The position numbers and the translations under genes were made by a program. This document shows, in pieces, positions 21,729 through 60,622 of a stretch of DNA of 64,000 nucleotides (within the stretch, counting starts at the first letter, position 1; the number at the start of each line of letters is the position of its first letter). Location: positions 5,311 to 69,310 of the forward strand of contig DASUDI010000021.1 of the NCBI GenBank assembly GCA_036275695.1, read 5' to 3'. The notes under the pieces are model-generated. The model ran no database searches, had not been told where the DNA came from, and worked only from the letters and a program-made list of their open reading frames with translations. Source of the DNA: Minisyncoccota bacterium. Its GTDB lineage: Bacteria > Patescibacteriota > Minisyncoccia > Phycocordibacterales > UBA918.

Positions 21729-22274
21729 TTAAGTGGTGGGATGTGTATTAGTTCTTGTTTTCAAAATGTAGGTATACCACACAACGAGAAATGCAAATAG
21801 AATCGCTGCCAAAAGTGGAAAGGTAACAAAACCAAACTCAAACATAAATCGCTTCGCACAATCTCCTCCCGAGCTTGGGCAAGCTATGAATGAAGACCCA
21901 CCCATTTGTATGTAGTGATGATACAGTGATATGACAAGCCCAATCCATGAGAGTACAATTCCATGACGAGGCATGAAGCGCTCCTTAAAATATAGGGCGG
22001 TGAGTACGAGTGGCACTTGTGTCCACAACATCATTCGCTCAAGCCAACAAAATCCGCACGGGACAAGACCAAATACCTCAGAATAGAGGAGCGTAAGAAG
22101 TGTAGCGAAAAACGTAAGAAAAAGTGCCCCATGCATACCTACCTTTTCAATAATCTCGCGAAAATTTTGCTTAGTACGCAAATCAATGAAGAGGAGCACT
22201 CCAAATACCCCTAGTATAAGTGACGTAGTCGCAAGCAGAATGTTTGTCTGCTGGATGAGTTCGATGGTCACCAT
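21729..22274 (-). CDS. dsbB: disulfide bond formation protein B (DsbB/BdbC family)
   Basis: 181 aa, 4 TM. The first-loop CxxC (LVPCGFCWLERM) and second-loop Cys pair (FIACPSSGGDCAKR) are typical of DsbB. Confidence 0.75.
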   Translation of the reverse strand: MVTIELIQQTNILLATTSLILGVFGVLLFIDLRTKQNFREIIEKVGMHGALFLTFFATLLTLLYSEVFGLVPCGFCWLERMMLWTQVPLVLTALYFKERFMPRHGIVLSWIGLVISLYHHYIQMGGSSFIACPSSGGDCAKRFMFEFGFVTFPLLAAILFAFLVVWYTYILKTRTNTHPTT

Positions 22275-22280
22275 ACTGGT

Positions 22281-22706
22281 TTAAGATTGTGGAGGTGTGG
22301 GTATCACGCACCCCGTCTTTTCAGCAAGTTTTTCAAATGTTAATTCCCCATTCTCTCGTGAACCATCAGCAAAAACCCACGTAGGGTACCCCGTAATTTC
22401 CTTATCAATGCAAATTGGTAATTGACCTTTGCCATCTGGCGTTGAACACTCTACGTAGGGTAATTTCTTTGAATTATTAAAAAGTTTCTTTTGCGCCTGG
22501 CAGTGTGGACACCAATATGCTCCGTAGAATGTGGCACCACTATCTCCAATGCACTGCGCGAATGTGTCGTATGGAGTCACTGAATTTGTCGCGGTATCGG
22601 ACTCTTTATTTGAAAGTGTTTTAATGCCAATCACTCCGCCCACTATAAGAATGGCCACGATAATGTATATGTGTGTTGTTTTCATATGCGTAAGTATATC
22701 ATACAC
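22281..22706 (-). CDS. membrane-anchored thioredoxin-fold oxidoreductase with a DsbA-type CPHC active site
   Basis: N-terminal TM (IYIIVAILIVGGVIG), then …GAYWCPHCQAQKKLF… Immediately upstream and co-directional with dsbB, as in BdbC/BdbD-like pairs. Confidence 0.7.
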   Translation of the reverse strand: MYDILTHMKTTHIYIIVAILIVGGVIGIKTLSNKESDTATNSVTPYDTFAQCIGDSGATFYGAYWCPHCQAQKKLFNNSKKLPYVECSTPDGKGQLPICIDKEITGYPTWVFADGSRENGELTFEKLAEKTGCVIPTPPQS

Positions 22707-27069: not shown

Positions 27070-27645
27070 CTACATTCCCTTTGTACCTAAGTGATGGACT
27101 TTAACAATCCAGCGATTAAGTATTTTTTCCTCAACACGTTCGGATGGACCGAAAACACTTACATGTGTTTTTATTCCTGCAAAGCCAAGAATGCCATGTG
27201 TAATTTCGTTAGTGAAGTCACCAAATTTCCACCATGTTTTAAATGGTGAGTGCGTTCCAGCGACAACAATTACTCGCGCTGTTTTGCCCTTGAGTCTTTG
27301 AACAAGTTTTTTAGTTTGTTTGTCAAAATTGAATGCGAATCCAGGTAACCACATGCGGTCAAAAAGACCCTTTAAAACTGCGGGCATAGTGCACCACCAG
27401 TTTGGATAGATAAAGACGACATGATCAGCCTGAATAATTTCCTCTTGAAGATGTATGAGGTCTGGTTCGAGTGCTTGTATTTCTCGATATCCCGCGTGAA
27501 GAATTGGATCAAATTTAAGATCACTTATGTTTACTCGTTCAACATCAAAACCGGCGTCTTTCGCGCCACTCACATACGCATCTGCGAGCTTACCCGTAAA
27601 AGAATCGGTGTGAGGATTCCCCAGAAAAACTAGAATTTTTTTCAT
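27070..27645 (-). CDS. NAD(P)H dehydrogenase (quinone)-like flavodoxin-fold oxidoreductase (Flavodoxin_2 / general stress protein 14 family)
   Basis: MKKILVFLGNPHTDSFTGKLADAYVSGAKDAGFDVERVNISDLKFDPIL… matches the MdaB/NQO-like N-terminus. Confidence 0.65.
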   Translation of the reverse strand: MKKILVFLGNPHTDSFTGKLADAYVSGAKDAGFDVERVNISDLKFDPILHAGYREIQALEPDLIHLQEEIIQADHVVFIYPNWWCTMPAVLKGLFDRMWLPGFAFNFDKQTKKLVQRLKGKTARVIVVAGTHSPFKTWWKFGDFTNEITHGILGFAGIKTHVSVFGPSERVEEKILNRWIVKVHHLGTKGM

Positions 27646-50535: not shown

Positions 50536-50570
50536 ATTTTAATAGTATACTATATATCTATAATCAACAA

Positions 50571-50592
50571 AGGTCAGATATATATCTGACCT
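50571..50592. repeat. 22-nt perfect palindrome AGGTCAGATATATATCTGACCT in a 390-bp intergenic region, candidate operator
   Basis: Read directly. It is centred about 45 nt upstream of the AI-2E transporter start codon. Confidence 0.5.
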
Positions 50593-50923
50593 TGTATGTC
50601 ATGGAATGGGGGTAGGTGCTGGTATCGTAATCTTTGCTGAACGCGCAGTTGCTTCAAGCGCGTTAAATGTGGCTGATATTGCCCTATCTGCTGCATCGAA
50701 ACTCGCACTGAACAGTGACGAAAGATACCAAATGACCAAGATCATTCCTATTGACTTAAACATACATATGTAATTTGCAACTATAACAACACAGGACGAA
50801 TGTGTTGTCTGAATAAAATCAGTAGTCGCGCATATGAAATGATTAAGAACAGTATCCGCATACAGTATAGCATATATGCTATATATGTAAACTACACGGA
50901 GGATGAAGTCATGCGAGATCAGG

Positions 50924-51661
50924 TTAATAAACACACAGTGGCGCCAATCCAAAAAAATGATATATCTGAAAACCAAAGTCACTCATCAATATACTCTGTG
51001 ACGAGAGCAACGATACTCCGAGGACAATAAGGAATACTCCACTGAACTTTGAAAGATATCGTTCATAGCGTGCGTAGCCTGTAAAAGCGTGGACTGACTG
51101 CGCATATAATAAACCTGTCAAAATAAAGGGGACTGCCAAACCCAATGAAAAAGTAAGTAATAATACTCCTCCCTGCATAAGCGTTGCAGACTGTGACGCG
51201 AGGAGAAGGATTGAGGCGAGAATGGGTCCGGCACAGGGAGACCATCCGAGTGCAAATACAACTCCTAGTAACAAAGGGCGAGCAAATCTACCTTTTTCCA
51301 TATGTGGCACGCGAATTCGCTGAAAGGTATTTTTAAGTAGCGGTAGTTCAAAGACTCCAAGTATCGCAAGACCAAACAGTATAATTAACACCGATCCAAC
51401 TTGAGAAAAAATTACTTTGTAATGCTGAGTCCATGATCCAAGATAAGCACTCAATAGACCAAATAGAAAAAAAATAATACTAAAACCAAACGTAAAGGTA
51501 ATGGTACGTATCGTAATCTCACGTCGCTTATTGTGACGCACCGTATCAGGCACCAAGGACGCGAGAAAAGCCGGCACAATGGGAAGTGTGCATGGCGCAA
51601 GAAACATGACGACTCCACCCGCAAACGCACTCACCATGAGTATAAGTGAAAGTTCGTGCAT
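50924..51661 (-). CDS. ccdA: cytochrome c-type biogenesis protein CcdA (DsbD-family transmembrane thiol:disulfide electron transporter)
   Basis: Start taken at MHELSLILMV… Conserved Cys in TM1 (LAPCTLPIVPAF) and TM4 (GWSPCAGPILASI). Confidence 0.75.
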   Translation of the reverse strand: MHELSLILMVSAFAGGVVMFLAPCTLPIVPAFLASLVPDTVRHNKRREITIRTITFTFGFSIIFFLFGLLSAYLGSWTQHYKVIFSQVGSVLIILFGLAILGVFELPLLKNTFQRIRVPHMEKGRFARPLLLGVVFALGWSPCAGPILASILLLASQSATLMQGGVLLLTFSLGLAVPFILTGLLYAQSVHAFTGYARYERYLSKFSGVFLIVLGVSLLSSQSILMSDFGFQIYHFFGLAPLCVY

Positions 51662-51662
51662 A

Positions 51663-52217
51663 CTACTGTGTGAGAGTTTGTAATATACTGGTAAGCTCTG
51701 CTTCGTCGAAAACACCGCGCGCGTGATACACCTTCACGCCATCCTTATCGTACACAAGAGTCTCTGGCATCGCGTAGCCGTTGATTGAAGTATAAAAATG
51801 ATCACTCGGGTCTAAAAGAACGTGAATATCCTCAGATACAGGATACACACTCAGAAATGAACGTACCGTACCGACTTGTTCCATGCGGTTAATGGCGAGA
51901 ACGTATATATCTTGCGCGTACGTGTGTGCCAATCGAGCAAGTATTGGTAGTTCTGTTTGAGAAAATGGTGTCCACGTTGCCCATGAATTAATAATAATAG
52001 GCTTGCCACGAAAATTGTGTAAATTGACGGGATTTCCTGAGAGGTCTGTATACATCTGTCCATCATCTGGCTCAATGACTTTTAGATCATTTTCAAGATC
52101 ACCCAAGTAACCACCTGGTGACACAGACAAAAAGGTAATCATCCCAAGGGCACATACCACAACCATGATGAGAGTAACCTGTTTCCAATATTGCCGCAGA
52201 TGCACTCCCATATACAC
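51663..52217 (-). CDS. TlpA/ResA-like thioredoxin-fold protein lacking the catalytic CxxC (WATWTPF in place of WCxxC)
   Basis: 184 aa. N-terminal TM, then …FRGKPIIINSWATWTPFSQTELPIL…, which aligns to the TlpA active-site region. Both cysteines are absent. Confidence 0.6.
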   Translation of the reverse strand: MYMGVHLRQYWKQVTLIMVVVCALGMITFLSVSPGGYLGDLENDLKVIEPDDGQMYTDLSGNPVNLHNFRGKPIIINSWATWTPFSQTELPILARLAHTYAQDIYVLAINRMEQVGTVRSFLSVYPVSEDIHVLLDPSDHFYTSINGYAMPETLVYDKDGVKVYHARGVFDEAELTSILQTLTQ

Positions 52218-52219
52218 TC

Positions 52220-52702
52220 CTATCCCTTAATGAATAATTCAAAATCCTCAGGAGTCTCACCCTCCATGGGAGGGATAAGATTGAGTTCGACTTCTCTACT
52301 CATAATGAACGCGCGTATTTTTGCTTGCTCACTTGCCTCAAACGACACTAAAAACCTCTGCGGTGTCACTACCTGAGCACATGTTTGTGCGTGATTGACA
52401 ACCTTAAAATCTATCATTACTTGTTCTGGACTCGATTCAAGAATACGCGTATCCCAATTAAGCAAATCACATGGAGTCGGCATTGCTATCTCACCAGCTA
52501 GGGTATGTTTTCCATTAATAAAAAAATGTTTTGCATCAATGCGAATTATATCTCCGTATGGAGAAGTTTCATCAATAACAACAGGAGATGTTTCACTCTT
52601 ATCTTCCTGCATTTCTTGTTTTTTGATGTACGTAAACGTAAACATACCGACGACAATAAGCACTAAAATAGTAGTTGCTATAATTATATTATTTTTACCC
52701 AT
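52220..52702 (-). CDS. hypothetical membrane-anchored protein
   Basis: 160 aa. N-terminal TM, two Cys in the extracytoplasmic domain. It is co-directional with and immediately downstream of the TlpA-like gene. Confidence 0.45.
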   Translation of the reverse strand: MGKNNIIIATTILVLIVVGMFTFTYIKKQEMQEDKSETSPVVIDETSPYGDIIRIDAKHFFINGKHTLAGEIAMPTPCDLLNWDTRILESSPEQVMIDFKVVNHAQTCAQVVTPQRFLVSFEASEQAKIRAFIMSREVELNLIPPMEGETPEDFELFIKG

Positions 52703-52748: not shown

Positions 52749-54086
52749 CTACTGAGCACTATTTACGCCTTCAACATACTCCATCCCTTCATCAACGGTG
52801 ATTTGATAGCGGTTATGTTCTTCAGTTGCTTTTGCAATATACATAACGGTGATAATAAAAATTATAATGATGATAAGTAGGGATATGAAAAACTTTTTGT
52901 ACACGCGTACAAAACCTATGATTGTCTCCATAACATCCATTGTCTCGCGAGTCGCGTGCATACGCGCGCGCAAATCAAGTACACCATATCGCAGCGGCGC
53001 GGTGATGTGCGTTTGTGGTACGGAGCGGGTATTGGGTTGTCCTCTCTCCCATAACATACTTCGTGGTGTGGTGTGTAAGTGAACATGACCCTCCTTTGGA
53101 TCTACACCAGCGAGTATGAGCATTCTACGTACATACGCACGCACCATCCACACAAGACTCGAAATAATAAGTGTCAAAATAGACACAACAATAAGCGTCG
53201 CTTTCAGCGGGATAACCCAAAAATATACTGTTGCGGATTCACTCTTTACACCATCAGTCCCGTAGCCAAGGGTAACAATTGCCTTATAGCGACCAATATC
53301 GCTAAGGTTAAAGTCACTACTCCATGTATAATGATATTCACGTATACTTTTCGGCAGTACGTTTCCAAATTGGGTCTGATAATTAACGGGGATCACTCCT
53401 CGTTCGGTACCCCACATATTAGTGATACGTATTTCACCTCGCGGGAGAAGGTGCACGTTGCCTTTATTCTCAAATCGTAGTGAAAATTCTGCCTGTGGTT
53501 TTTCAAGTATGGAATCAGATAGTCGAAATTCACGAATGGAACCTTGCTCGATTACGTCACCTTCGACCCTCAAAAAAAATAATGAGGTGACTGCTTGTGA
53601 TGTCCTGACGAGAGGACCATTTGCAATATTATTTGGTGGTTCGGTACTTATGAGTACTGCTGCATAATGTCCTCCCGGTGACGCATTCTTTGGAATGTCC
53701 ACAATGAACGATATCTCCTGAGTCTGTTCTGGCTGTATCTGGTGTGGCCCAGGGGGAATCTCAACCCACTCCGCAAGTGTTGCGCCATCGGTATCTGGCG
53801 AATCGATAATTTGTGCCTCATCTTTTTTGACGGAAAAAAATTCACCTTGCCCATTTTCGCCCGTTGGTGAAAAATTTACCACTTCTGCATATACCGTCAT
53901 GGGGAATGGGTTGCCGTTTACAACTTTAATAGTACTTTGCCACACATCTCCGGGAAGCGCGGTTATTTGAAAAAGTGGTGGGGTGACACTCAAAATTTGC
54001 GAAGATTGAGCGTTTACCGAAGATGAGCACATGAGCAGAAAAAAAGTGCCAATGATCTGTGTGAATCTAAAAAGTACATTTCTCAT
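52749..54086 (-). CDS. hypothetical cell-surface protein (signal peptide, beta-rich ectodomain, C-terminal TM anchor; DUF916/DUF3324-like organisation)
   Basis: 445 aa. Signal MRNVLFRFTQIIGTFFLLMCSSSVNA. Then …LSVTPPLFQITALPGDVWQSTIKVVNG… C-terminal TM (LKATLIVVSILTLIISSLVWMV) plus a tail. It is a paralogue of the next gene. Confidence 0.5.
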   Translation of the reverse strand: MRNVLFRFTQIIGTFFLLMCSSSVNAQSSQILSVTPPLFQITALPGDVWQSTIKVVNGNPFPMTVYAEVVNFSPTGENGQGEFFSVKKDEAQIIDSPDTDGATLAEWVEIPPGPHQIQPEQTQEISFIVDIPKNASPGGHYAAVLISTEPPNNIANGPLVRTSQAVTSLFFLRVEGDVIEQGSIREFRLSDSILEKPQAEFSLRFENKGNVHLLPRGEIRITNMWGTERGVIPVNYQTQFGNVLPKSIREYHYTWSSDFNLSDIGRYKAIVTLGYGTDGVKSESATVYFWVIPLKATLIVVSILTLIISSLVWMVRAYVRRMLILAGVDPKEGHVHLHTTPRSMLWERGQPNTRSVPQTHITAPLRYGVLDLRARMHATRETMDVMETIIGFVRVYKKFFISLLIIIIIFIITVMYIAKATEEHNRYQITVDEGMEYVEGVNSAQ

Positions 54087-55087
54087 AAGTTGTTACGTGT
54101 TAGATCAATATCATGATGACGTGGGTCGCGTTTCCCTTCACGCACATGAACCATAAGGCGCTCTGAGTCATCCATATCAGTATCATCGAAATAACGTTTA
54201 TGAACATACCACGCGCCAAAAATTACCACAGTAATTAAGCCTGAGAGTAGTATGAGTAAATACTTTATCGGAAAGGCGTAAAAGAAACTTGTGTCTTGGA
54301 CCGTCGCTCGCTGTGTTGAACCGTATTCAACTGATAAAAAAGCCTTGTATTTACCGAAAAGACCGTCACGCGATATCTTGGTTTCGAATACATGCTCACC
54401 ATTGGGAGGAACCTCTACGCGATCCTCATTGACGCGGGCAACCCCCACTTCCTTGCCCTTGCTATCATAAATAATGATTTCTCCTTCAGGAACAAGACTC
54501 TCACTGCTCGGATTGTTAAAGGTGTAGCGGGCTACATTATTAGAATCATTGGTAATGAAGCGATTTACAACAAACCCCGAAAGTTTGAGAAATTCAGTAT
54601 TCTTCTCCTCAATGGTGACATTAATGATCGTTCCTGGTGCCTGACCCTGTGCCACAAGTCGCTCTGCCTCGTCGCGATTATCACCATGACCAAATCCAAT
54701 AAATGCATGATATGTACCTGGTGACGGGGTTGGGTGCACACGGAGTGTAATGGGGATTTTTATTTCATCACCCGGTCGCACGAGGATGCCAAGTCTGCTA
54801 ACTTCAATCCACGACGCAAGTGAGGTGGTACGGTCACTCTCAACTGGTGGCAGGAATTCTTCAATTGTCCCACCATCCTGAATCGAAATGTTGTTGACGG
54901 AGGGATAAAGAGTGGCTGGTTGAGCTCCCGTATTTTTAATAGTAATTTCCTTTTGAATAATATCCCTTCCCTCTGCATCTATATCCATTACCAGTGGCGA
55001 TACCGAAAAGGTGGGCGCCGCGTATGCGACGACAGGTGTCGTGTATAGCGAGAGTGTTATTAAACTTATGATGTAAAAATATCTCAT
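54083..55087 (-). CDS. hypothetical cell-surface protein, paralogue of 52749..54086
   Basis: The start is taken at MRYFYIISLITLSLYTTPVVAYA (signal peptide). Then …FSVSPLVMDIDAEGRDIIQKEITIKNTG… C-terminal TM (IKYLLILLSGLITVVIFGAWYV). Its start abuts the stop of the giant gene. Confidence 0.5.
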   Translation of the reverse strand: MRYFYIISLITLSLYTTPVVAYAAPTFSVSPLVMDIDAEGRDIIQKEITIKNTGAQPATLYPSVNNISIQDGGTIEEFLPPVESDRTTSLASWIEVSRLGILVRPGDEIKIPITLRVHPTPSPGTYHAFIGFGHGDNRDEAERLVAQGQAPGTIINVTIEEKNTEFLKLSGFVVNRFITNDSNNVARYTFNNPSSESLVPEGEIIIYDSKGKEVGVARVNEDRVEVPPNGEHVFETKISRDGLFGKYKAFLSVEYGSTQRATVQDTSFFYAFPIKYLLILLSGLITVVIFGAWYVHKRYFDDTDMDDSERLMVHVREGKRDPRHHDIDLTRNNL

Positions 55088-55088
55088 A

Positions 55089-58000
55089 CTAAAAAACGGG
55101 TACTGAAATGTATCGCATGTGTGCTTCGTATGTTCCCGCATCCTGCATTTGACGTACGAGTAATCTAAATACAACATCAATAAACTCGCCCACCACCGGC
55201 TGTGAACTATACCCCACCTCATCAAGTGTTGTTGTGCTCATACGTGCCCATGTATCGACTGCTGAAAACCGAGTTGAGCCACCATACAGTGTATCATCTG
55301 CAGAGTGGTAACCAAAACAACTGCGAGCACTCGCGTTACACCCTGAAGCCCATGAGGTCGGGGTACCGTTGGTACCTATGACCTGATCGATTTTTTCACC
55401 AAATGATGTGAGCATATCCCCTGAAAGAGTCGTGAAGAGTCGATATCCTGAAGTTCCATTTGTGTCAATGGTGAAACGATGTGCACCTTCAACAAACGTA
55501 TCAACAGGGACTGAACCAAATGGAATTGTGGACGGTGTTGTTGCGATATCAGTAGTGATTCCTTCAATGGTCTGTCCAGAGGATATCCCTGTCATAGTAA
55601 AGACCAGACTTGCGCCCTTGGTCAGAAGACTTGGGTACGTTTCTCCCTGCGCGAGTGGCACGACGCTATTATTAGTCGCGTCATATGCCCTAAAATAATA
55701 CACTCGATTGACGCGTGCGCCACTACTCCTCAATGTAAACGCAAACTCAGTTGCAGCATTTATTTGATGATCAAAGGTGCTTGTAGTGGTGCCACTTTCA
55801 TTATGTGTACCGCATCCGACACCAACTTGTGACACACACGCGCCCACATCAGAAAGTAATTTTGTTTGTATAGACACGTCATCTGCTCCACCCCCGTTCT
55901 CATAGCACCAGTAGGAAAGATTGGTGCATGTACCCATTTCAGATACAAAGGTCGATGTTGCAAATGTAGGTGATTCTGAAAACTGCAGACGAAATCGAAC
56001 ATTAGTCCCCACGGCACCGTTGGATTCTTGGAGCGTAAGACGCAATTGAATAGGATTATTTACATCAATGTCAATGGGAGCCACTGTTTCATTCGCAAGT
56101 GGAGTTGTGGGTGTTTCATTTTCCGCATCATCATACCATCTCCAATTTTTTGATTCTGCACCATATCCCACCGTGCGAATTGTGGGGTAATTATTATACG
56201 CAGTCAGTAGTGTTCCATTTGCTTCAGTCATCCTAAAACAGTATGACGTCCTATCAGCGGCACCATTATTTTGAATTGCCCAGTCATACTCAATATCCTG
56301 ATTGGCATTTGTTTTATATGGTGCGAGCGCGGTATTGTTTTGCTCTTCAAAGGTTCCCGCGACGTCTGAAACAGACAAAAGTAAATCACCACCCGTAGGC
56401 GGGTCTCCTGAAAGTACCGCCCCATCAGTAATCGGAGTTGAGGTACCTCTCCATAATGCGGTAGTACTCCCAATCGCACCCAGATTTTTCCACTCAGTTG
56501 TTTGAATAGCACTACACGTGGTGATTCGTGGTGCGTATTGAAGCTTAAATGCGTCGGTATTCGCAATAAGTGCCGCGGCACTTATTGCGAGTGACATGCG
56601 TAGTCGCAGTGTTCCACCATTAAGTATCGGGGTGTCGAACCCTGTCATCTCCGTATTTTCTCCAAGGTCAGTAGCACCCACTGGCCATGGATCCGTAGGT
56701 TTTAAAGCGTTGTTATTGACATAGAGTCTGTAGTAATTTTGAGATATCTTTCTACGTGCGGTTGGCCACTCAACAACCTCTGTTCTGTAATTTCTTGTGT
56801 CACCCGTATTACTCATCCATATTTCATACTGTGTCGTAGAGATAAGACGAGTCGCAATCATTGGTTCAGGCCACGATGTTCCCGTCCCCGAACTTCTGTT
56901 ATTCATAAAAATTGAAGCGATACCCACGTCATCAAGTGTTTTACCGATATTTATATTTGAAGTAAAGGGAGCCGTACCACCTGACTGCGTGCCATTTGAG
57001 CGGGTGACCACCATCGTGGTGCCCACCGTCTGAAGATTCTCAATAATCCACGCCACTGATACGTGCCCTGTTGGTGTTGTTGCCGCGCCATCTAAAAGAA
57101 ACGACACCTGTCCAACACTTGAAAGCCACACCTCGTGTCCAAAGTTTGCATGCGAATCAAGCCCTGATCCAACACGCTTTTGTGTATGCACAAAAGCTCG
57201 CGTAAGACTTCCGATTGCGGTAATTGATTCAGTTTCAGTACTTCCCGCAGATGAGTAGGTGTGTTCAGCGCGCTGAACTACCCAGTTAGAGCCGGTAAAT
57301 TCTACTACCGCGTAACTTACATACACCGCATCACTCCCCGCTTCACCGCGCGTAAATGTTGCCGTGTCAGCACCCGCGTCCCATGACGCGGTGGAAAGTA
57401 CGGTATTGTAGTCCGCTCGGCCTGAGTCAGGATTGTATTGACCAGTGACGAACACTGCCACATCAGTATCATCAGTGATACCCGCGACAGTATTTGACGT
57501 AAGCGTCGTACCTGTCGTGGTGTACGCGCGCGCTTGCTGCTGTCGCACAATGAATTCATTCTCTCCCCCGGCAGTTCCTTTGTACTCTACAATTTCCCAC
57601 GCAACTCTTGTATCACCCGAAGGAGTACCATTTCTTTGAAAAGTGATACTATTAGTGATATTTGAGGGATTGGTGATATACACCGTAACATCGTTAGCGT
57701 TCTGGTTTCCAGTCGCACCAGAATCTCCTGCGCCCGTACTATGCGTATTGGTAATGCGAATAAATGCCGAGGTCGAGGCACTCGGTGCTACATAGTCAGT
57801 CCCTGCGTTAATGGTAAGTGAGCCACCAGTAATTGTCGAAACACCTCGCTGCACTCGGAAGTCAGTGGGTAATTTAATGGTCACCTCGGGATAGACCGAG
57901 TATGCGGGGAGTGCCGTTCCTGCGTTTGTAAGACGAAAACAATAGGTGGCACCTTCCACTGATGACGCGGTTGCGTTGAGTGAGTACTCGAATTCAACGA

Positions 58001-60560
58001 ATTGAGTTTCTGAGAGAGTAATAGAACCCGTCTGAGATGTTGTTTCTCGCTGTCCTCCATTTGAGGTCACGAAGCTGGCATTTTCGTCATTCATACCTCC
58101 ACTTGATACGGTAATATTTGTGGTGTTATTGCCTTCAACAAGTTGTGACGCGGACATGTCCCACGCACCACCTCCAGTACTCACGTCACTCCACCCTGTT
58201 GCAGCACTACATGTTGAGATTTTTTGCGCAAATTCAAGGCGGTATTGGATACCTTGCGTAGTGGTGCCACCTTCATTTGATACTTGCACACGAAGTCGCT
58301 GTATATCAAGTTGTGCTACTTTGGTAAGTGGCGTATCAGCAGTACCACCCGTAGCCGAAGTCGCGCCAGACTCTGTTCCATCGTTGTTGCGCCAATGATA
58401 GTGTGTTTGCGTAGGTATACTTTTATATAGTCGCGTTACTCCTGGTACAGCAACATTTGTATTAGGTGCCACGTTGGCACCACTTGCATTAATGTGCGTA
58501 TTAGGATTAGTGATTTGTAAATCAAGTGATTGATTATTTGTAGAACTGGCGGTTATATCAAGCATTGTATATATACACGCACTCTGTGTCGAAGAAACGC
58601 TGATTGAGCCGACGAATGTAGATGTTCCTGTGGTCGAAAATCCATCAGTGTCAGTTGTACCATACTGAGATTCAGTCCCTATGTACGACTCACTCGCGCA
58701 ATTATATGGTGCAGAAGTATCATACTCATAGTACAGTTTGATATTATCGAGTCCATATACCACATCAACCGTTCCACTCGCGGTAATGGTTATACCGGAA
58801 ATGGTGTGTGGGCCAGCCGTCTGCGCCTCAATATTAAAACTACCTCCAAGGTATACATTTGAAGTGGTTATATCGATACTTGTGCGCTGTGTTCCAGCAC
58901 TGGTAACCAAGACATCCGCGGTAACAGTTGCTTCTGGGTACACCGAGTAGGTAATCTCTGATGCTGAACCAGCATCAGTAAGCCTAAAACAATAAGTCCC
59001 TCCATCGGTTGCGTTGGTAGTTGGTGAGATTGAATATTCTAATTCCGCAAACTGACTTGATGTAAGCGTGAGTCCACCCACCTGTGATGAAGTGTCCTTC
59101 ACTCCTCCATTAGGAGTGAGAAATGTTGTGTTCTCATTCGTTACTCCTCCCGTTGAAACTACTATATCGGTGGTGTCACTTCCATCGGTAATATTACTTG
59201 AATTAAACATATCCCAATCACCTCCACCCGCACCAACATCAGTCCAGCCGGACGCCGCGGAACACGTAGACACCTTTGATGCGTATTCAATGCGATATTG
59301 TTTTGAGGTCGACGTTTTATTTCCTTCGTTTGATATTTCAAAACGAAGACGTTTTCCCACGAGTTTGCCAATCGCAGAGAGGTGCGTGCTCTCAGTGCCT
59401 CCTGTTGCTGAAGTAGCTCCCGATTCACTTCCGTTATCATTACGCCAATGAAAACGCATTTGTCGCAAATCAACTTTTTGCACCGTACCTGCACCAGAAA
59501 TTGAAAGCGCTGTTGTGGGATCTATGACTGGTGAGCTTGCGGCCACAACATCAATAGACGGATTGGTCATCTGAATATCGATAGTATCACCCGCACCTGC
59601 ACTTGATTGAACATCAGCAACAACATATACGCATAACGCTTTTGTGGTGTTGATATTTATACCTGATGCGGTAAAAACGGATGAGCCGTCAGCACCACTG
59701 AATCCATCCGCATCGGTGGACCCATACTGAGACTCAGTACCCGCATAACTTTCACTTGCGCAGTTATACGGCGATGAGGTATCGTTTTCGTAGAATAATT
59801 TAATATTTTTAAGGTTTGAGGACGCGTCAATAGTACCGTGTTCATATACAGTGATTGAAGTCACATCACGGTTACTCACGGATGAGTTTTCAGTTATTGC
59901 AAAACTCCCACCAAGATGCGCGTTATTCGTTCCCGCATCAATATTTTGCATCGTGCCCTGCGTTGATACAGTGATATTAATTACTGGCGTATAGGTAACA
60001 TACGCGTAGAGTGCGTAGTTGATACAGTTGGTGGCACCTCCCGCACCGGGCTTAGTACAGGTGGTACGAACACGCAACCCGTCAAGATCAGATTGCGTGA
60101 GCGTGAGCCCCGTGAAGTTGACACTTGACCACGTGCTTACGGTACTAATAGTGACATTCTGTGTCGTGCCAATCTGGGTAGTTTCTGCGGCATTCCAAAG
60201 TGAAACCTGGAACTGCATATTTGAACCACCTTCTTTGTGATACAAAAATACGGTCACCGCGGACGCAGTCTGAACATTTGAAATCGTACCCATTTGGTAC
60301 GAATCGAGCTGATTGCGCGTGAATGTAAGATAATCACCTGTTGTACTGGGTGCTGTTGTTGAACTCACACCATCATTAACACAATCATAATTATTCGCAG
60401 TAGCACACGTTGTTCGCGCCCCCTGAGAGGTGTTTCCTGCACCATCAGGGTTTATTTGTTGCCCCAATGCCTCAGTAATAAGTGTATATATAAAAAAACC
60501 ACACAGCACAAATAGAGCAGTTATACCTGCAACGGTGACCATTTCCATGCTCTTACGCAT
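55089..60560 (-). CDS. giant (about 1820-aa) repeat-containing extracellular protein
   Basis: A single uninterrupted ORF. N-terminal signal anchor (MVTVAGITALFVLCGFFIYTLI). Ser/Thr/Gly/Asn-rich. It contains a ~355-aa tandem duplication. A …WR…YCFR[LM]T[DN]AG-type subdomain is repeated at least 4 times. Confidence 0.6.
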   Translation of the reverse strand: MRKSMEMVTVAGITALFVLCGFFIYTLITEALGQQINPDGAGNTSQGARTTCATANNYDCVNDGVSSTTAPSTTGDYLTFTRNQLDSYQMGTISNVQTASAVTVFLYHKEGGSNMQFQVSLWNAAETTQIGTTQNVTISTVSTWSSVNFTGLTLTQSDLDGLRVRTTCTKPGAGGATNCINYALYAYVTYTPVINITVSTQGTMQNIDAGTNNAHLGGSFAITENSSVSNRDVTSITVYEHGTIDASSNLKNIKLFYENDTSSPYNCASESYAGTESQYGSTDADGFSGADGSSVFTASGININTTKALCVYVVADVQSSAGAGDTIDIQMTNPSIDVVAASSPVIDPTTALSISGAGTVQKVDLRQMRFHWRNDNGSESGATSATGGTESTHLSAIGKLVGKRLRFEISNEGNKTSTSKQYRIEYASKVSTCSAASGWTDVGAGGGDWDMFNSSNITDGSDTTDIVVSTGGVTNENTTFLTPNGGVKDTSSQVGGLTLTSSQFAELEYSISPTTNATDGGTYCFRLTDAGSASEITYSVYPEATVTADVLVTSAGTQRTSIDITTSNVYLGGSFNIEAQTAGPHTISGITITASGTVDVVYGLDNIKLYYEYDTSAPYNCASESYIGTESQYGTTDTDGFSTTGTSTFVGSISVSSTQSACIYTMLDITASSTNNQSLDLQITNPNTHINASGANVAPNTNVAVPGVTRLYKSIPTQTHYHWRNNDGTESGATSATGGTADTPLTKVAQLDIQRLRVQVSNEGGTTTQGIQYRLEFAQKISTCSAATGWSDVSTGGGAWDMSASQLVEGNNTTNITVSSGGMNDENASFVTSNGGQRETTSQTGSITLSETQFVEFEYSLNATASSVEGATYCFRLTNAGTALPAYSVYPEVTIKLPTDFRVQRGVSTITGGSLTINAGTDYVAPSASTSAFIRITNTHSTGAGDSGATGNQNANDVTVYITNPSNITNSITFQRNGTPSGDTRVAWEIVEYKGTAGGENEFIVRQQQARAYTTTGTTLTSNTVAGITDDTDVAVFVTGQYNPDSGRADYNTVLSTASWDAGADTATFTRGEAGSDAVYVSYAVVEFTGSNWVVQRAEHTYSSAGSTETESITAIGSLTRAFVHTQKRVGSGLDSHANFGHEVWLSSVGQVSFLLDGAATTPTGHVSVAWIIENLQTVGTTMVVTRSNGTQSGGTAPFTSNINIGKTLDDVGIASIFMNNRSSGTGTSWPEPMIATRLISTTQYEIWMSNTGDTRNYRTEVVEWPTARRKISQNYYRLYVNNNALKPTDPWPVGATDLGENTEMTGFDTPILNGGTLRLRMSLAISAAALIANTDAFKLQYAPRITTCSAIQTTEWKNLGAIGSTTALWRGTSTPITDGAVLSGDPPTGGDLLLSVSDVAGTFEEQNNTALAPYKTNANQDIEYDWAIQNNGAADRTSYCFRMTEANGTLLTAYNNYPTIRTVGYGAESKNWRWYDDAENETPTTPLANETVAPIDIDVNNPIQLRLTLQESNGAVGTNVRFRLQFSESPTFATSTFVSEMGTCTNLSYWCYENGGGADDVSIQTKLLSDVGACVSQVGVGCGTHNESGTTTSTFDHQINAATEFAFTLRSSGARVNRVYYFRAYDATNNSVVPLAQGETYPSLLTKGASLVFTMTGISSGQTIEGITTDIATTPSTIPFGSVPVDTFVEGAHRFTIDTNGTSGYRLFTTLSGDMLTSFGEKIDQVIGTNGTPTSWASGCNASARSCFGYHSADDTLYGGSTRFSAVDTWARMSTTTLDEVGYSSQPVVGEFIDVVFRLLVRQMQDAGTYEAHMRYISVPVF
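57878..59993. repeat. intragenic tandem duplication, two copies of about 1.06 kb, inside the giant surface-protein gene
   Basis: The protein blocks …NNAHLGGSFAITENSS…YCFRLTDAGSASEITYSVYPEATV and …SNVYLGGSFNIEAQTA…YCFRLTNAGTALPAYSVYPEVTI are collinear, about 355 aa apart. Two similar antisense ORFs end about 1.05 kb apart (58398 and 59451). Confidence 0.7.
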
Positions 60561-60622
60561 ACATAAATACCTCCGAATATATCGGATACCTCTATTATGA
60601 AGCAAAACACCAGAAATGCGAC

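What the first reader, a model, noticed from the sequence alone, without database searches (positions are those of the whole stretch)
50924..52702. CcdA paired with a TlpA-like thioredoxin that has lost both active-site cysteines
CcdA normally delivers electrons to a CxxC TlpA/ResA-type thioredoxin, for example for cytochrome c maturation. Here the downstream-aligned partner keeps the fold signature around the active site (…INSWATWTPFSQTELP…) but has WATWTPF instead of WCxxC. The only cysteine is in the TM helix. No cytochrome c maturation genes are visible. The protein is either a redox-dead pseudo-thioredoxin (a chaperone or substrate-binding role), or CcdA's real partner is the Cys-containing 160-aa protein at 52220..52702, which has 2 Cys in its ectodomain.
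Basis: seen in the sequence. Interest (0 to 1): 0.55.

Follow-up and report, generated by a model that had tools for sequence, protein, structure and literature searches.

The report
Cysteine-less thioredoxin partner, three-cysteine CcdA
In this candidate-phyla-radiation bacterium, a membrane electron transporter (CcdA) sits next to a thioredoxin-like partner that has lost both catalytic cysteines, and in this lineage CcdA itself always carries an extra cysteine on its outward-facing tail, which suggests a rewired way of sending reducing power out of the cell.

Summary
51663-52211(-) encodes a membrane-anchored TlpA/ResA-family protein whose CxxC is T-P-F-S. Aligned to B. subtilis ResA, the Thr and Ser fall exactly on the two cysteines. 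50924-51661(-) encodes an intact CcdA, and 52220-52702(-) a 160-aa protein with two invariant cysteines.

The loss is not an error. The Cys-less state holds from 99% down to about 30% identity. Of the 150 best family representatives, 78 are Cys-less (mostly SPxS), 69 are CxxC and none has a single cysteine. All other family signature residues are retained.

Across 80 Patescibacteria genome loci, 39 of 41 Cys-less genes have no CcdA next to them, against 13 of 40 CxxC genes. The window belongs to the exception: a CcdA subclade (about 38 clusters) with a third invariant cysteine three to four residues from the C-terminus, predicted to face outward. All 12 complete loci of this subclade, plus the window, pair it with a Cys-less TlpA-like gene. 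No CcdA next to a CxxC partner has it.

The window holds no c-type cytochrome or maturation genes, but it does hold a DsbB plus CPHC thioredoxin-like oxidising pair at 21.7-22.7 kb.

Best reading: a conserved pseudo-thioredoxin plus a three-cysteine CcdA relay. The relay is inferred, not shown. It is a new variant of a known kind.

The parts
50924..51661 (-). CcdA (245 aa). A six-helix DsbD-beta-type electron transporter with the two canonical cysteines, C24 (51590-51592) and C143 (51233-51235).
   Evidence: Pfam DsbD_TM 9e-22. The AF2 model (pLDDT 74.6) has 5VKV CcdA as its best PDB match, with TM-score 0.62/0.67. C24 and C143 are invariant in 90 homologues.
50933..50935 (-). Codon of the third cysteine of CcdA (C243, ...GLAPLCVY-COOH), on the C-terminal tail predicted to face outward.
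   Evidence: C243 is invariant in 34 subclade members; elsewhere the position is L, F or Y. Positive-inside counts put the N-terminus and the tail outside, with 0 K/R in residues 220-245. In 12 of 12 complete loci plus the window, it sits beside a Cys-less TlpA-like gene.
51663..52211 (-). Cys-less TlpA/ResA-like pseudo-thioredoxin (182 aa from the ATG). It has an N-terminal membrane anchor and an ectodomain with a thioredoxin fold.
   Evidence: Pfam Redoxin 3e-12, NCBIfam ResA 1e-13, PDB ResA 7e-17. It is conserved in more than 50 loci.
51960..51983 (-). Former active site, W79-A-T-W-T83-P-F-S86, in place of W-C-x-x-C.
   Evidence: DNA read directly: tgg gca acg tgg aca cca ttt tct. Residue-by-residue alignment to ResA C74/C77.
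52220..52702 (-). p160: a membrane-anchored all-beta ectodomain protein of no known family, with invariant C78 (52469-52471) and C108 (52379-52381).
   Evidence: 628 homologue clusters, no Pfam or NCBIfam match. Both cysteines are invariant. AF2 pLDDT is 86.5, with one transmembrane helix and seven strands. No significant fold match.
50599..50766 (-). Conserved 55-aa small membrane protein gene between CcdA and the AI-2E transporter gene. It appears to have its own promoter and terminator and is probably not part of the redox module.
   Evidence: Homologous small ORFs occur in 53 loci, with or without CcdA. Promoter-like site at 50891-50864 and terminator at 50593-50570.
52749..60605 (-). Upstream conserved surface-protein genes: a giant 1838-aa protein (55089-60605), p380 (54083-55225) and its paralogue p445 (52749-54086). 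This block always precedes p160 and the TlpA-like gene.
   Evidence: Synteny across about 55 loci. No Pfam families were found, apart from a faint WxLIP_PGBD hit for p445.
21729..22706 (-). Separate oxidising pair: a membrane-anchored thioredoxin-like protein with a CPHC motif (22281-22706) and DsbB (21729-22274).
   Evidence: Pfam DsbB 1.3e-10 and Thioredoxin 0.0025. The sequences show FYGAYWCPHCQ...GYPTW in the first protein and PCGFCW / ACPSSGGDC in the second.

Best explanation
What is shown. The TlpA/ResA-like gene encodes a genuine, long-conserved thioredoxin-fold protein that cannot carry out thiol-disulfide exchange, because Cys-x-x-Cys has become Thr-Pro-Phe-Ser. It keeps every other residue that defines its Patescibacteria family. 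The adjacent CcdA is intact and under purifying selection. It belongs to a subclade that carries a third invariant cysteine, three to four residues from the C-terminus, on a tail predicted to lie outside the membrane. This three-cysteine form is found only next to Cys-less TlpA-like genes.

What is inferred. Cytoplasmic thioredoxin reduces the C24/C143 pair inside the membrane, as in every CcdA. In place of a partner CxxC, CcdA's own tail cysteine C243 acts as the exit point. It attacks a substrate disulfide (or a sulfenylated or thiolated cysteine). The mixed disulfide is passed to C143 and resolved by C24. This resembles the recycling cysteines on the C-terminal tails of MsrA and 2-Cys peroxiredoxins.

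The Cys-less thioredoxin fold is retained as a non-catalytic docking or specificity subunit. It either holds the CcdA tail in its former active-site groove or holds the substrate. Its groove is preserved, and it is kept even in relatives that later lost CcdA, so it must also have a CcdA-independent binding role. That role is probably linked to the p160 and surface-protein genes it always follows.

The pathway has nothing to do with cytochrome c. It would counterbalance the DsbB-based oxidising system encoded in the same window.
For: Cysteine positions substituted, fold retained.

The Cys-less state is conserved and selected:
- All but one of 19 homologues, from 99% to 30% identity, are Cys-less.
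- 41 of 81 genes in 80 genome loci are Cys-less.
- Of the 150 best representatives of 50% clusters, 78 are Cys-less, 69 are CxxC and none has a single cysteine.
- The signature residues W79, A80, W82, P84, INRxE, D136, D139 and MPET are invariant, and identical in the CxxC, Cys-less-with-CcdA and Cys-less-without-CcdA groups.
- Its divergence is similar to that of the neighbouring CapA gene.

CcdA is intact and selected:
- C24 and C143 are invariant.
- Identity among subclade members is 45-66%, like p160 and p445.
- The predicted fold matches solved CcdA 5VKV.

Third cysteine:
- It is invariant in 34 subclade sequences and absent in the 55 other CcdAs aligned, where the column is L, F or Y.
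- Nine further positions are class-specific, including A144 next to C143.
- The tail is predicted to lie outside.

Association:
- 12 of 12 complete tail-Cys loci (L081-L086, L088, L106, L165-L168) plus the window lie directly downstream of a Cys-less TlpA-like gene.
- None of the 43 CcdAs beside a CxxC TlpA has the tail cysteine.
- The two Cys-less loci whose CcdA lacks the tail cysteine (L062, L070) both have a DsbA-like CxxC gene immediately upstream.
- In L167 the downstream genes differ, but p160, the TlpA-like gene and CcdA stay together.

Tight gene spacing. No cytochrome c system. Oxidising pair in the window.
Against: - The tail cysteine arose once. The perfect association is therefore a single evolutionary event plus retention, not many independent replicates.
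Proximity of C243 to C24/C143 or to the TlpA-like groove is untested. The tail has only moderate model confidence (pLDDT 57-67).
- A lone cysteine could instead bind metal, regulate the protein, or be a protected client residue.
- Relatives inside the same TlpA-like clade (L001-L008) have lost CcdA at this locus but keep the Cys-less protein unchanged. The pseudo-thioredoxin therefore does not need CcdA, and CcdA is dispensable in some lineages.
- Only 64 kb of the genome is visible. A conventional CxxC partner could be encoded elsewhere.
Confidence: 0.4

Rival explanations
1. The two genes are functionally uncoupled. The Cys-less TlpA-like protein is a purely structural or chaperone component of the conserved surface-protein module (giant protein, p380, p445, p160). 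CcdA delivers electrons to a conventional CxxC protein encoded elsewhere. That could be the CPHC thioredoxin-like protein at 22281-22706 (acting as an isomerase) or a gene outside the window. The tail cysteine would then have an unrelated role.
For: The Cys-less protein is kept unchanged in 39 loci without an adjacent CcdA. It always follows p160 directly. An exported CxxC thioredoxin-like protein does exist in the window. Only 64 kb of the genome is visible.
Against: The three-cysteine CcdA is always immediately downstream of the Cys-less gene with 1-7 bases between them, even where the downstream context is rearranged. The CPHC protein is adjacent to DsbB and is of the type fused to VKOR oxidases (the latter from own knowledge), which suggests it is an oxidant and not a CcdA client. 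This model gives no reason for the gain of an invariant cysteine exactly in the lineage whose neighbour lacks cysteines.
Confidence: 0.3
2. The 160-aa protein is the redox acceptor. It would act as a free-standing counterpart of the immunoglobulin-like alpha domain of DsbD or ScsB. Its C78/C108 pair would be reduced by CcdA, directly or through the tail cysteine, and would then reduce substrates. The Cys-less thioredoxin fold would act as a scaffold between them.
Confidence: 0.12
3. This is a pathway in decay. After the TlpA-like protein lost its cysteines, CcdA became useless and is simply on its way out. The window would be a lineage where CcdA has not yet been deleted.
For: 39 of 41 Cys-less loci have no adjacent CcdA. 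Close relatives L001-L008 have cleanly lost it.
Against: The CcdA subclade spans about 38 clusters at 42-98% identity, with 38 invariant columns including all three cysteines, and no disrupted copies were seen. Its conservation equals that of its neighbours. A new invariant cysteine was gained, which does not fit drift.
Confidence: 0.08
4. Artefact: a sequencing or assembly error, or a frameshift, removed a CxxC that is really present.
For: None found.
Against: The ORF is intact. The Thr codon ACA is more than one base change away from either cysteine codon (the Ser codon TCT is one change from TGT). Independent assemblies at 99%, 53% and lower identity carry the same motif.
Confidence: 0.01

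Closest known systems
Bacillus subtilis CcdA-ResA (and CcdA-StoA) extracytoplasmic reducing pathways
   Same: A six-helix CcdA is encoded with a membrane-anchored TlpA/ResA-type thioredoxin-fold protein. The best PDB sequence matches are ResA structures. The counterparts of ResA Glu80 and the cis-proline are conserved.
   Different: The partner has no CxxC (TPFS). There are no resBC/ccsBA genes or CxxCH proteins in the window. CcdA has a third, extracytoplasmic cysteine.
Streptococcus CcdA-Etrx-MsrAB2 / SdbB pathways (PMC3914529, PMC7034828)
   Same: These show that CcdA plus TlpA-like pairs serve purposes other than cytochrome c maturation in bacteria without an outer membrane. PDB hits include the pneumococcal Etrx proteins (2yp6, 4hqs).
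   Different: There the thioredoxin-like lipoproteins keep their CxxC and reduce MsrAB. No Msr gene is in this locus, and the partner is Cys-less.
DsbD / ScsB three-domain reductases and the proposed split alpha-gamma-beta precursors (Cho et al. 2012, PMC3322552)
   Same: The component logic is the same: a membrane beta domain (CcdA), a thioredoxin-like gamma module (the TlpA-like protein), and a beta-sandwich protein with two cysteines (p160) encoded together. The paper explicitly proposes CcdA to thioredoxin-like protein to free alpha domain.
   Different: The gamma equivalent is redox-dead. p160 shows no detectable homology to DsbD-alpha or ScsB-alpha. CcdA has six helices, not eight, and carries its extra cysteine on a short tail rather than in a domain.
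Redox-inactive thioredoxin-fold modules: PDI b/b' domains and ERp29 (own knowledge); E. coli CnoX/YbbN with SQHC (PMC10998233)
   Same: A thioredoxin fold is retained without a CxxC and used for binding substrates or partners rather than for catalysis.
   Different: Those are soluble cytoplasmic or ER proteins of other subfamilies. This one is an extracytoplasmic TlpA-type protein that is still encoded with its former electron donor.
Chlamydomonas CCS4, an accessory protein with no redox motif that stabilises CCDA (bioRxiv 10.1101/2022.10.14.512171)
   Same: A small membrane-anchored protein without redox-active cysteines that is nevertheless needed for a CcdA-dependent reducing pathway, by stabilising CCDA.
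   Different: CCS4 is not a thioredoxin-fold protein, and its pathway serves cytochrome f maturation. The analogy is functional only and is untested here.
Recycling cysteines on flexible C-terminal tails (E. coli MsrA; typical 2-Cys peroxiredoxins) - own knowledge
   Same: A cysteine near the C-terminus shuttles a disulfide between a buried catalytic site and an external partner.
   Different: This has not been described for the DsbD/CcdA superfamily. Here it is inferred from conservation and topology only.

Membership tests
TlpA/ResA/CcmG-type extracytoplasmic thiol-disulfide oxidoreductases (Pfam Redoxin PF08534 / AhpC-TSA PF00578) | Sequence and fold match to the family | tested here: met
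   Redoxin 46.9 bits (cut-off 26.6), AhpC-TSA 44 bits (cut-off 26). ResA, TlpA and DsbE NCBIfam models hit below their equivalog cut-offs. PDB ResA 7e-17 over 142 positions.
TlpA/ResA/CcmG-type extracytoplasmic thiol-disulfide oxidoreductases | W-C-x-x-C redox-active dithiol at the N-terminus of helix 1 | tested here: not met
   The motif is W-T-P-F-S. T83 and S86 align to ResA C74 and C77. The only cysteine is in the membrane anchor.
TlpA/ResA/CcmG-type extracytoplasmic thiol-disulfide oxidoreductases | cis-proline loop and buried acidic residue near the active site | tested here: met
   M-P151-E-T aligns to ResA P-L-P-T-T. E113 aligns to ResA E80. Both are invariant in the family.
TlpA/ResA/CcmG-type extracytoplasmic thiol-disulfide oxidoreductases | Exported or membrane-anchored, and encoded with a CcdA/DsbD electron donor | tested here: met
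   N-terminal K/R-rich segment followed by a hydrophobic helix. The CcdA gene starts one base after its stop codon.
CcdA (DsbD-beta-only transmembrane electron transporters, PF02683) | Family HMM match and six-helix fold | tested here: met
   DsbD_TM 77.8 bits (cut-off 27.1). The AF2 model has six transmembrane helices. Foldseek top hit is 5VKV CcdA, prob 1.00, TM-score 0.62/0.67.
CcdA (DsbD-beta-only transmembrane electron transporters, PF02683) | One conserved cysteine in TM1 and one in TM4, each in a P-C motif | tested here: met
   A-P-C24-T-L-P and S-P-C143-A-G-P, invariant in 90 homologues.
CcdA (DsbD-beta-only transmembrane electron transporters, PF02683) | Hands electrons to an exported CxxC thioredoxin-like partner | not testable with these tools
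   The adjacent partner has no cysteines. No other TlpA-like or DsbA-like gene lies in the window by tblastn. The rest of the genome is not available.
System II cytochrome c maturation (ResABC / CcsBA with CcdA) | ResB/CcsB and ResC/CcsA genes, and CxxCH apocytochromes | tested here: not met
   No CxxCH occurs in any of 60 plausible genes. No ResB or CcsA family was found in the Pfam scans of 37 of those genes; the remaining short or soluble ORFs were not scanned. This applies to the window only.
DsbD-alpha / ScsB-alpha immunoglobulin-like redox domains (considered for p160) | Sequence homology to the alpha-domain families | tested here: not met
   No Pfam or NCBIfam hit. The profile search against PDB sequences finds neither protein at E up to 10.
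DsbD-alpha / ScsB-alpha immunoglobulin-like redox domains (considered for p160) | Beta-sandwich fold similar to the solved alpha domains, with a redox-active cysteine pair | tested here: inconclusive

The most novel reading that the evidence does not exclude
A previously undescribed architecture of the DsbD/CcdA superfamily. The catalytic thiol has moved from the thioredoxin-like partner onto the transporter itself, as a three-cysteine CcdA with an extracytoplasmic C-terminal relay cysteine. The partner survives as a Cys-less thioredoxin-fold docking subunit. Together they form a composite or 'split' active site that reduces surface proteins of an ultra-small episymbiotic bacterium lacking cytochromes.
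Probability: 0.25. Interest if true: 0.75.

Novelty: new variant of a known kind. Interest (0 to 1): 0.58.

Why it matters
CcdA/DsbD systems are the textbook route for sending reducing power across the bacterial membrane. Every described case ends in a CxxC thioredoxin-fold acceptor.

This lineage has kept the transporter and the thioredoxin fold but removed the acceptor's cysteines and added one to the transporter. If the tail cysteine is a relay, it shows that the exit step can be built in a different way. It would also give a natural example of a thioredoxin fold converted into a non-catalytic specificity subunit.

The work also defines a large family of SxxS/TxxS TlpA-like pseudo-oxidoreductases: at least 78 clusters at 50% identity. 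They sit in a conserved surface-protein locus of Paceibacteria-type Patescibacteria, organisms whose envelope biology is almost unknown and which live attached to host cells.

The complete absence of single-cysteine intermediates is a clean evolutionary observation about selection against trapping mixed disulfides.

Practically, current annotation ('TlpA disulfide reductase family protein', 'cytochrome c-type biogenesis protein') is misleading for these genes.

Tried and rejected
- Sequencing error or frameshift: rejected. The ORF is intact, the codons were read directly, and independent assemblies carry the same motif.
- Cytochrome c maturation role: rejected for the window. There is no CxxCH and no ResB, CcsA or Ccm gene.
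- A second TlpA-like or DsbA-like gene in the window, as found in fuller versions of the locus (L015, L024, L042, L062, L070): tblastn found none. The only other exported thioredoxin-like protein is the DsbB-linked CPHC protein.
- p160 as a DsbD-alpha or ScsB-alpha homologue: there is no sequence support, and structural scores are at noise level.
- Residues of the Cys-less protein that differ between genomes with and without the three-cysteine CcdA: none were apparent.
- The conserved 55-aa ORF after CcdA as part of the module: it occurs in 53 loci regardless of CcdA and has its own promoter-like site and terminator, so it probably belongs with the AI-2E gene.
- Methionine at the first active-site position as a metal ligand paired with the P-M-C tail: rejected, because that position varies (M, T, I, S) within the subclade.
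- Things that could not be done. The afdb50 fold library was not available. Model coordinates cannot be read, so no Cys-Cys distances were measured. No complex prediction was possible.
- Literature: six searches found nothing on Cys-less TlpA-like proteins or three-cysteine CcdA in the candidate phyla radiation. The library does not hold most subscription journals.
Full report
**1. What is in the sequence**

The finding covers three tightly packed genes on the minus strand.

- **p160 (52220-52702).** It has an N-terminal membrane helix and two cysteines, C78 and C108, in its ectodomain.
- **TlpA-like gene.** The ORF runs 51663-52217. The real start is almost certainly ATG 52211. It lies six bases after an AGGAG that overlaps the p160 stop codon, and it gives 182 aa, the length of the 99%-identical P0001.
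- **CcdA.** The ORF runs 50924-51715. The real start is ATG 51661, one base after the TlpA-like stop codon. This gives 245 aa, the length of the 98%-identical P0020.

No terminator-like site with a strong stem separates the three genes. The first strong terminator lies after a small downstream ORF.

**2. Checking the observation**

The middle protein matches Pfam Redoxin (3e-12) and AhpC-TSA (2.6e-11), both above their gathering scores. It also matches the NCBIfam ResA, TlpA and DsbE models.

A profile of the protein and its homologues finds B. subtilis ResA structures at 7e-17. In the printed alignment, NsWAtWtPfsqteLp lies on NFWGTWCPHCKKEFP. Thr83 (ACA) and Ser86 (TCT) therefore occupy exactly the two cysteine positions. 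Glu113 lies on ResA Glu80, and Pro151 on the cis-proline. The only cysteine, C22, is in the membrane anchor.

CcdA matches DsbD_TM at 9e-22 and keeps both canonical cysteines (APC24TLP, SPC143AGP). Its AF2 model (pLDDT 74.6) has six transmembrane helices. Its only significant PDB match is the solved CcdA structure 5VKV, with TM-score 0.62/0.67.

**3. Not an error, and not a one-off**

Eighteen of 19 sequence homologues, from 99% down to 30% identity, lack both cysteines. Only P0013 has CPQC.

A scan of species-representative genomes returned 80 loci, all from Patescibacteria-type MAGs labelled Kaiserbacteria, Paceibacterota, Nomurabacteria and so on. Of the 81 TlpA-like genes in them, 41 are Cys-less and 40 are CxxC.

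An exhaustive profile search of 1.84 billion cluster representatives found 375 family members at E below 1e-30. Of the best 150:
- 78 are Cys-less. The first position is Ser in 66. The last is Ser in 67, Thr in 6 and Ala in 5.
- 69 are CxxC.
- None retains a single cysteine.

The rest of the family signature is invariant: W-A-[ST]-W-x-P, INRxE, D..D.[FY]Y, GG[YF][AS]MPET.[FV]Y and H.RG. It is the same in CxxC members, in Cys-less members with CcdA and in Cys-less members without CcdA.

The protein diverges at about the same rate as the neighbouring CapA gene. This is the pattern of a pseudo-enzyme whose binding surface is still used. It is not the pattern of a decaying gene.

**4. Genomic context**

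The locus lies in a strongly conserved block: giant surface protein, p380, p445, p160, TlpA-like, [CcdA], 55-aa ORF, AI-2E transporter, CapA, FKBP, tgt.

Fuller versions of the locus (L015, L024, L042) carry additional genes. Between p160 and a CPFC TlpA-like gene they have a gene of about 343 aa of unknown function and a DsbA-like CxxC gene. These are followed by CcdA and a glutamate dehydrogenase gene.

The state of the active site tracks CcdA:
- 39 of 41 Cys-less genes have no CcdA beside them.
- 27 of 40 CxxC genes do have one.

The two Cys-less exceptions among the genome loci, L062 and L070, both have the DsbA-like CxxC gene immediately upstream.

In the window, tblastn finds no DsbA-like gene and no second TlpA-like gene anywhere in the 64 kb.

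**5. The new element: a third cysteine in CcdA**

Homologues of the window's CcdA fall into two classes.

- About 38 clusters, at 42-98% identity to the window, end in ...WGFALYSFFGY[VT]PMC[TS]Y[YF]. The cysteine, C243 in the window (codon 50933-50935), is invariant in the 34 sequences aligned.
- All other CcdAs listed, including every one next to a CPFC TlpA-like gene, end in ...YGYx[IL]FxFxGxxxL[FL]x[YH]L. They have Leu, Phe or Tyr in that column.

Nine further positions are class-specific, including Ala144 next to C143.

Positive-inside counts put the K/R-rich loops on the cytoplasmic side: 37-52, 102-128 and 190-205. The N-terminus and the K/R-free tail (220-245) come out on the outside.

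Context was recovered for 12 complete three-cysteine CcdA genes: L081-L086, L088, L106 and L165-L168. Each lies directly downstream of a Cys-less TlpA-like gene ([M/T/I]PFS), which is itself directly downstream of p160 wherever the contig reaches that far. Three more pairs are implied by shared contig lengths. There are no exceptions.

In L167 the downstream genes are different, but p160, the TlpA-like gene and CcdA stay together.

On a neighbour-joining tree of the TlpA-like proteins, the three-cysteine CcdA maps to the base of the [T/M/I/S]PFS clade. It was secondarily lost in L001-L008.

**6. What it is not**

No plausible gene in the window contains CxxCH. Pfam scans of 37 of the 60 plausible genes found no ResB, CcsA or Ccm family. 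The rest of the window is housekeeping: RNA polymerase alpha, tRNA synthetases, F-type ATPase, UvrABC, Ddl and others. This fits a small candidate-phyla-radiation genome. The pair is therefore not a cytochrome c maturation module.

- a membrane-anchored thioredoxin-like protein with FYGAYWCPHCQ...GYPTW (22281-22706);
- a DsbB homologue (21729-22274, Pfam 1.3e-10).

**7. p160**

p160 has 628 homologue clusters and no Pfam, NCBIfam or PDB sequence match. C78 and C108 and their flanking residues are invariant.

AF2 gives a confident model (pLDDT 86.5) of a membrane helix plus a seven-strand beta sandwich. The two cysteines lie in the beta2-beta3 and beta4-beta5 loops.

The cysteine pair is present in every locus, with or without CcdA. 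A structural disulfide made by the DsbB system is the simplest reading. A role as an electron acceptor is possible but unsupported.

**8. Most likely mechanism**

*Shown:*
- a redox-dead but conserved thioredoxin fold;
- an intact, conserved CcdA;
- a third invariant cysteine on the tail predicted to lie outside;
- a strict association of that cysteine with Cys-less partners;
- tight gene spacing;
- no other CxxC gene in the locus.

*Inferred:* electrons go from cytoplasmic thioredoxin to C24/C143, as in all CcdAs (established for the family; reviewed in PMC3322552 and PMC7329351). They then go to C243, which acts as the exit thiol. The Cys-less thioredoxin fold serves as a docking or specificity subunit.

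There are precedents for each part:
- tail recycling cysteines in MsrA and 2-Cys peroxiredoxins (own knowledge);
- non-catalytic thioredoxin folds such as PDI b' (own knowledge) and CnoX with SQHC (PMC10998233);
- a cysteine-free accessory protein, CCS4, that stabilises plastid CCDA (bioRxiv 10.1101/2022.10.14.512171).

I put 0.4 on this composite model. About 0.9 applies to the pseudo-thioredoxin part and about 0.3-0.4 to the relay part.

The main rival, at 0.3, is that the two proteins are functionally uncoupled and CcdA serves a partner encoded outside the window. The p160-acceptor model gets 0.12, pure decay 0.08 and artefact 0.01.

**9. Caveats**

- The tail cysteine arose once. The association is a single event plus long retention, not many independent replicates.
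- No complex model or Cys-Cys distance could be computed.
- Whole genomes could not be surveyed for other partners.
- The neighbour-joining trees are rough.
- The taxonomic labels of several MAGs ('Saccharibacteria', 'Gammaproteobacteria') are as deposited and look unreliable.

**10. Novelty and verdict**

Six literature searches found no description of Cys-less TlpA-like proteins or of a three-cysteine CcdA. The library does not hold most subscription journals.

The components belong to known families. The TlpA-like protein fails the defining CxxC test, so it should not be filed as an oxidoreductase.

The arrangement is a new variant of the CcdA-thioredoxin-like reducing pathway. Interest is moderate to fairly high for specialists in envelope redox biology and in the candidate phyla radiation.

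Noticed in passing
window 21729-22706 (-): A DsbB homologue (21729-22274; cysteine pairs PCGFCW and ACPSSGGDC) lies directly after a 141-aa membrane-anchored thioredoxin-like protein with FYGAYWCPHCQ...GYPTW. That is the module type fused to cyanobacterial VKOR (own knowledge). This is an oxidative disulfide-forming pair in a candidate-phyla-radiation genome with no visible quinone or respiratory genes in the window. A Flavodoxin_2/FMN-reductase gene lies at 27070-27645.
   Followed up: partly
window 50599-50766 (-): A 55-aa small membrane protein (MFKSIGMILVIWYLSSLFSASFDAADRAISATFNALEATA...) with no Pfam family. Homologous small ORFs sit just upstream of the AI-2E transporter gene in 53 of the fetched loci, independent of CcdA. 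It has its own promoter-like site and a strong terminator at 50570-50593.
   Followed up: partly
window 50866-50883: A perfect 18-bp palindrome, TATAGCATATATGCTATA, lies between the CcdA stop codon and the 55-aa ORF. It overlaps the -10 element of the promoter-like site at 50891-50864 and may be an operator.
   Followed up: no
window 52749-60605 (-): A conserved surface-protein block: a giant 1838-aa protein with 22 cysteines and internal repeats, then two paralogous proteins of about 330-445 aa (p380 and p445, about 25% identical). Each of these has a signal peptide and a C-terminal membrane segment. None matches a known family, apart from a faint WxLIP_PGBD hit for p445. Some p445 orthologues (L015, L024, L042, L062) carry an extra C-terminal domain.
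   Followed up: partly
L015 4285-8521; L042 4176-8551; L024 5287-7263: Fuller versions of the redox module in related genomes: a protein of about 343-372 aa with a conserved YCPLCGTG motif, a DsbA-like CxxC protein (about 220 aa), a CPFC TlpA-like protein and CcdA, followed in L015 and L042 by glutamate dehydrogenase. This looks like the ancestral arrangement from which the window's locus was reduced.
   Followed up: partly
L009, L059, L065, L068, L076, L079, L080, L050, L067, L069: A third state of the family: TlpA-like genes in the surface-protein locus that keep a CxxC with a different dipeptide (CPQC, CPSC or CPAC) but have no adjacent CcdA. Two CPAC members nest among Cys-less sequences on the tree, which suggests that the cysteines were lost more than once.
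   Followed up: no
L061 1227-1784; L064 4763-5335: Some loci carry a second TlpA-like gene immediately downstream of CcdA (for example CPNC in L064). CcdA can therefore be flanked by two thioredoxin-like partners in relatives.
   Followed up: no
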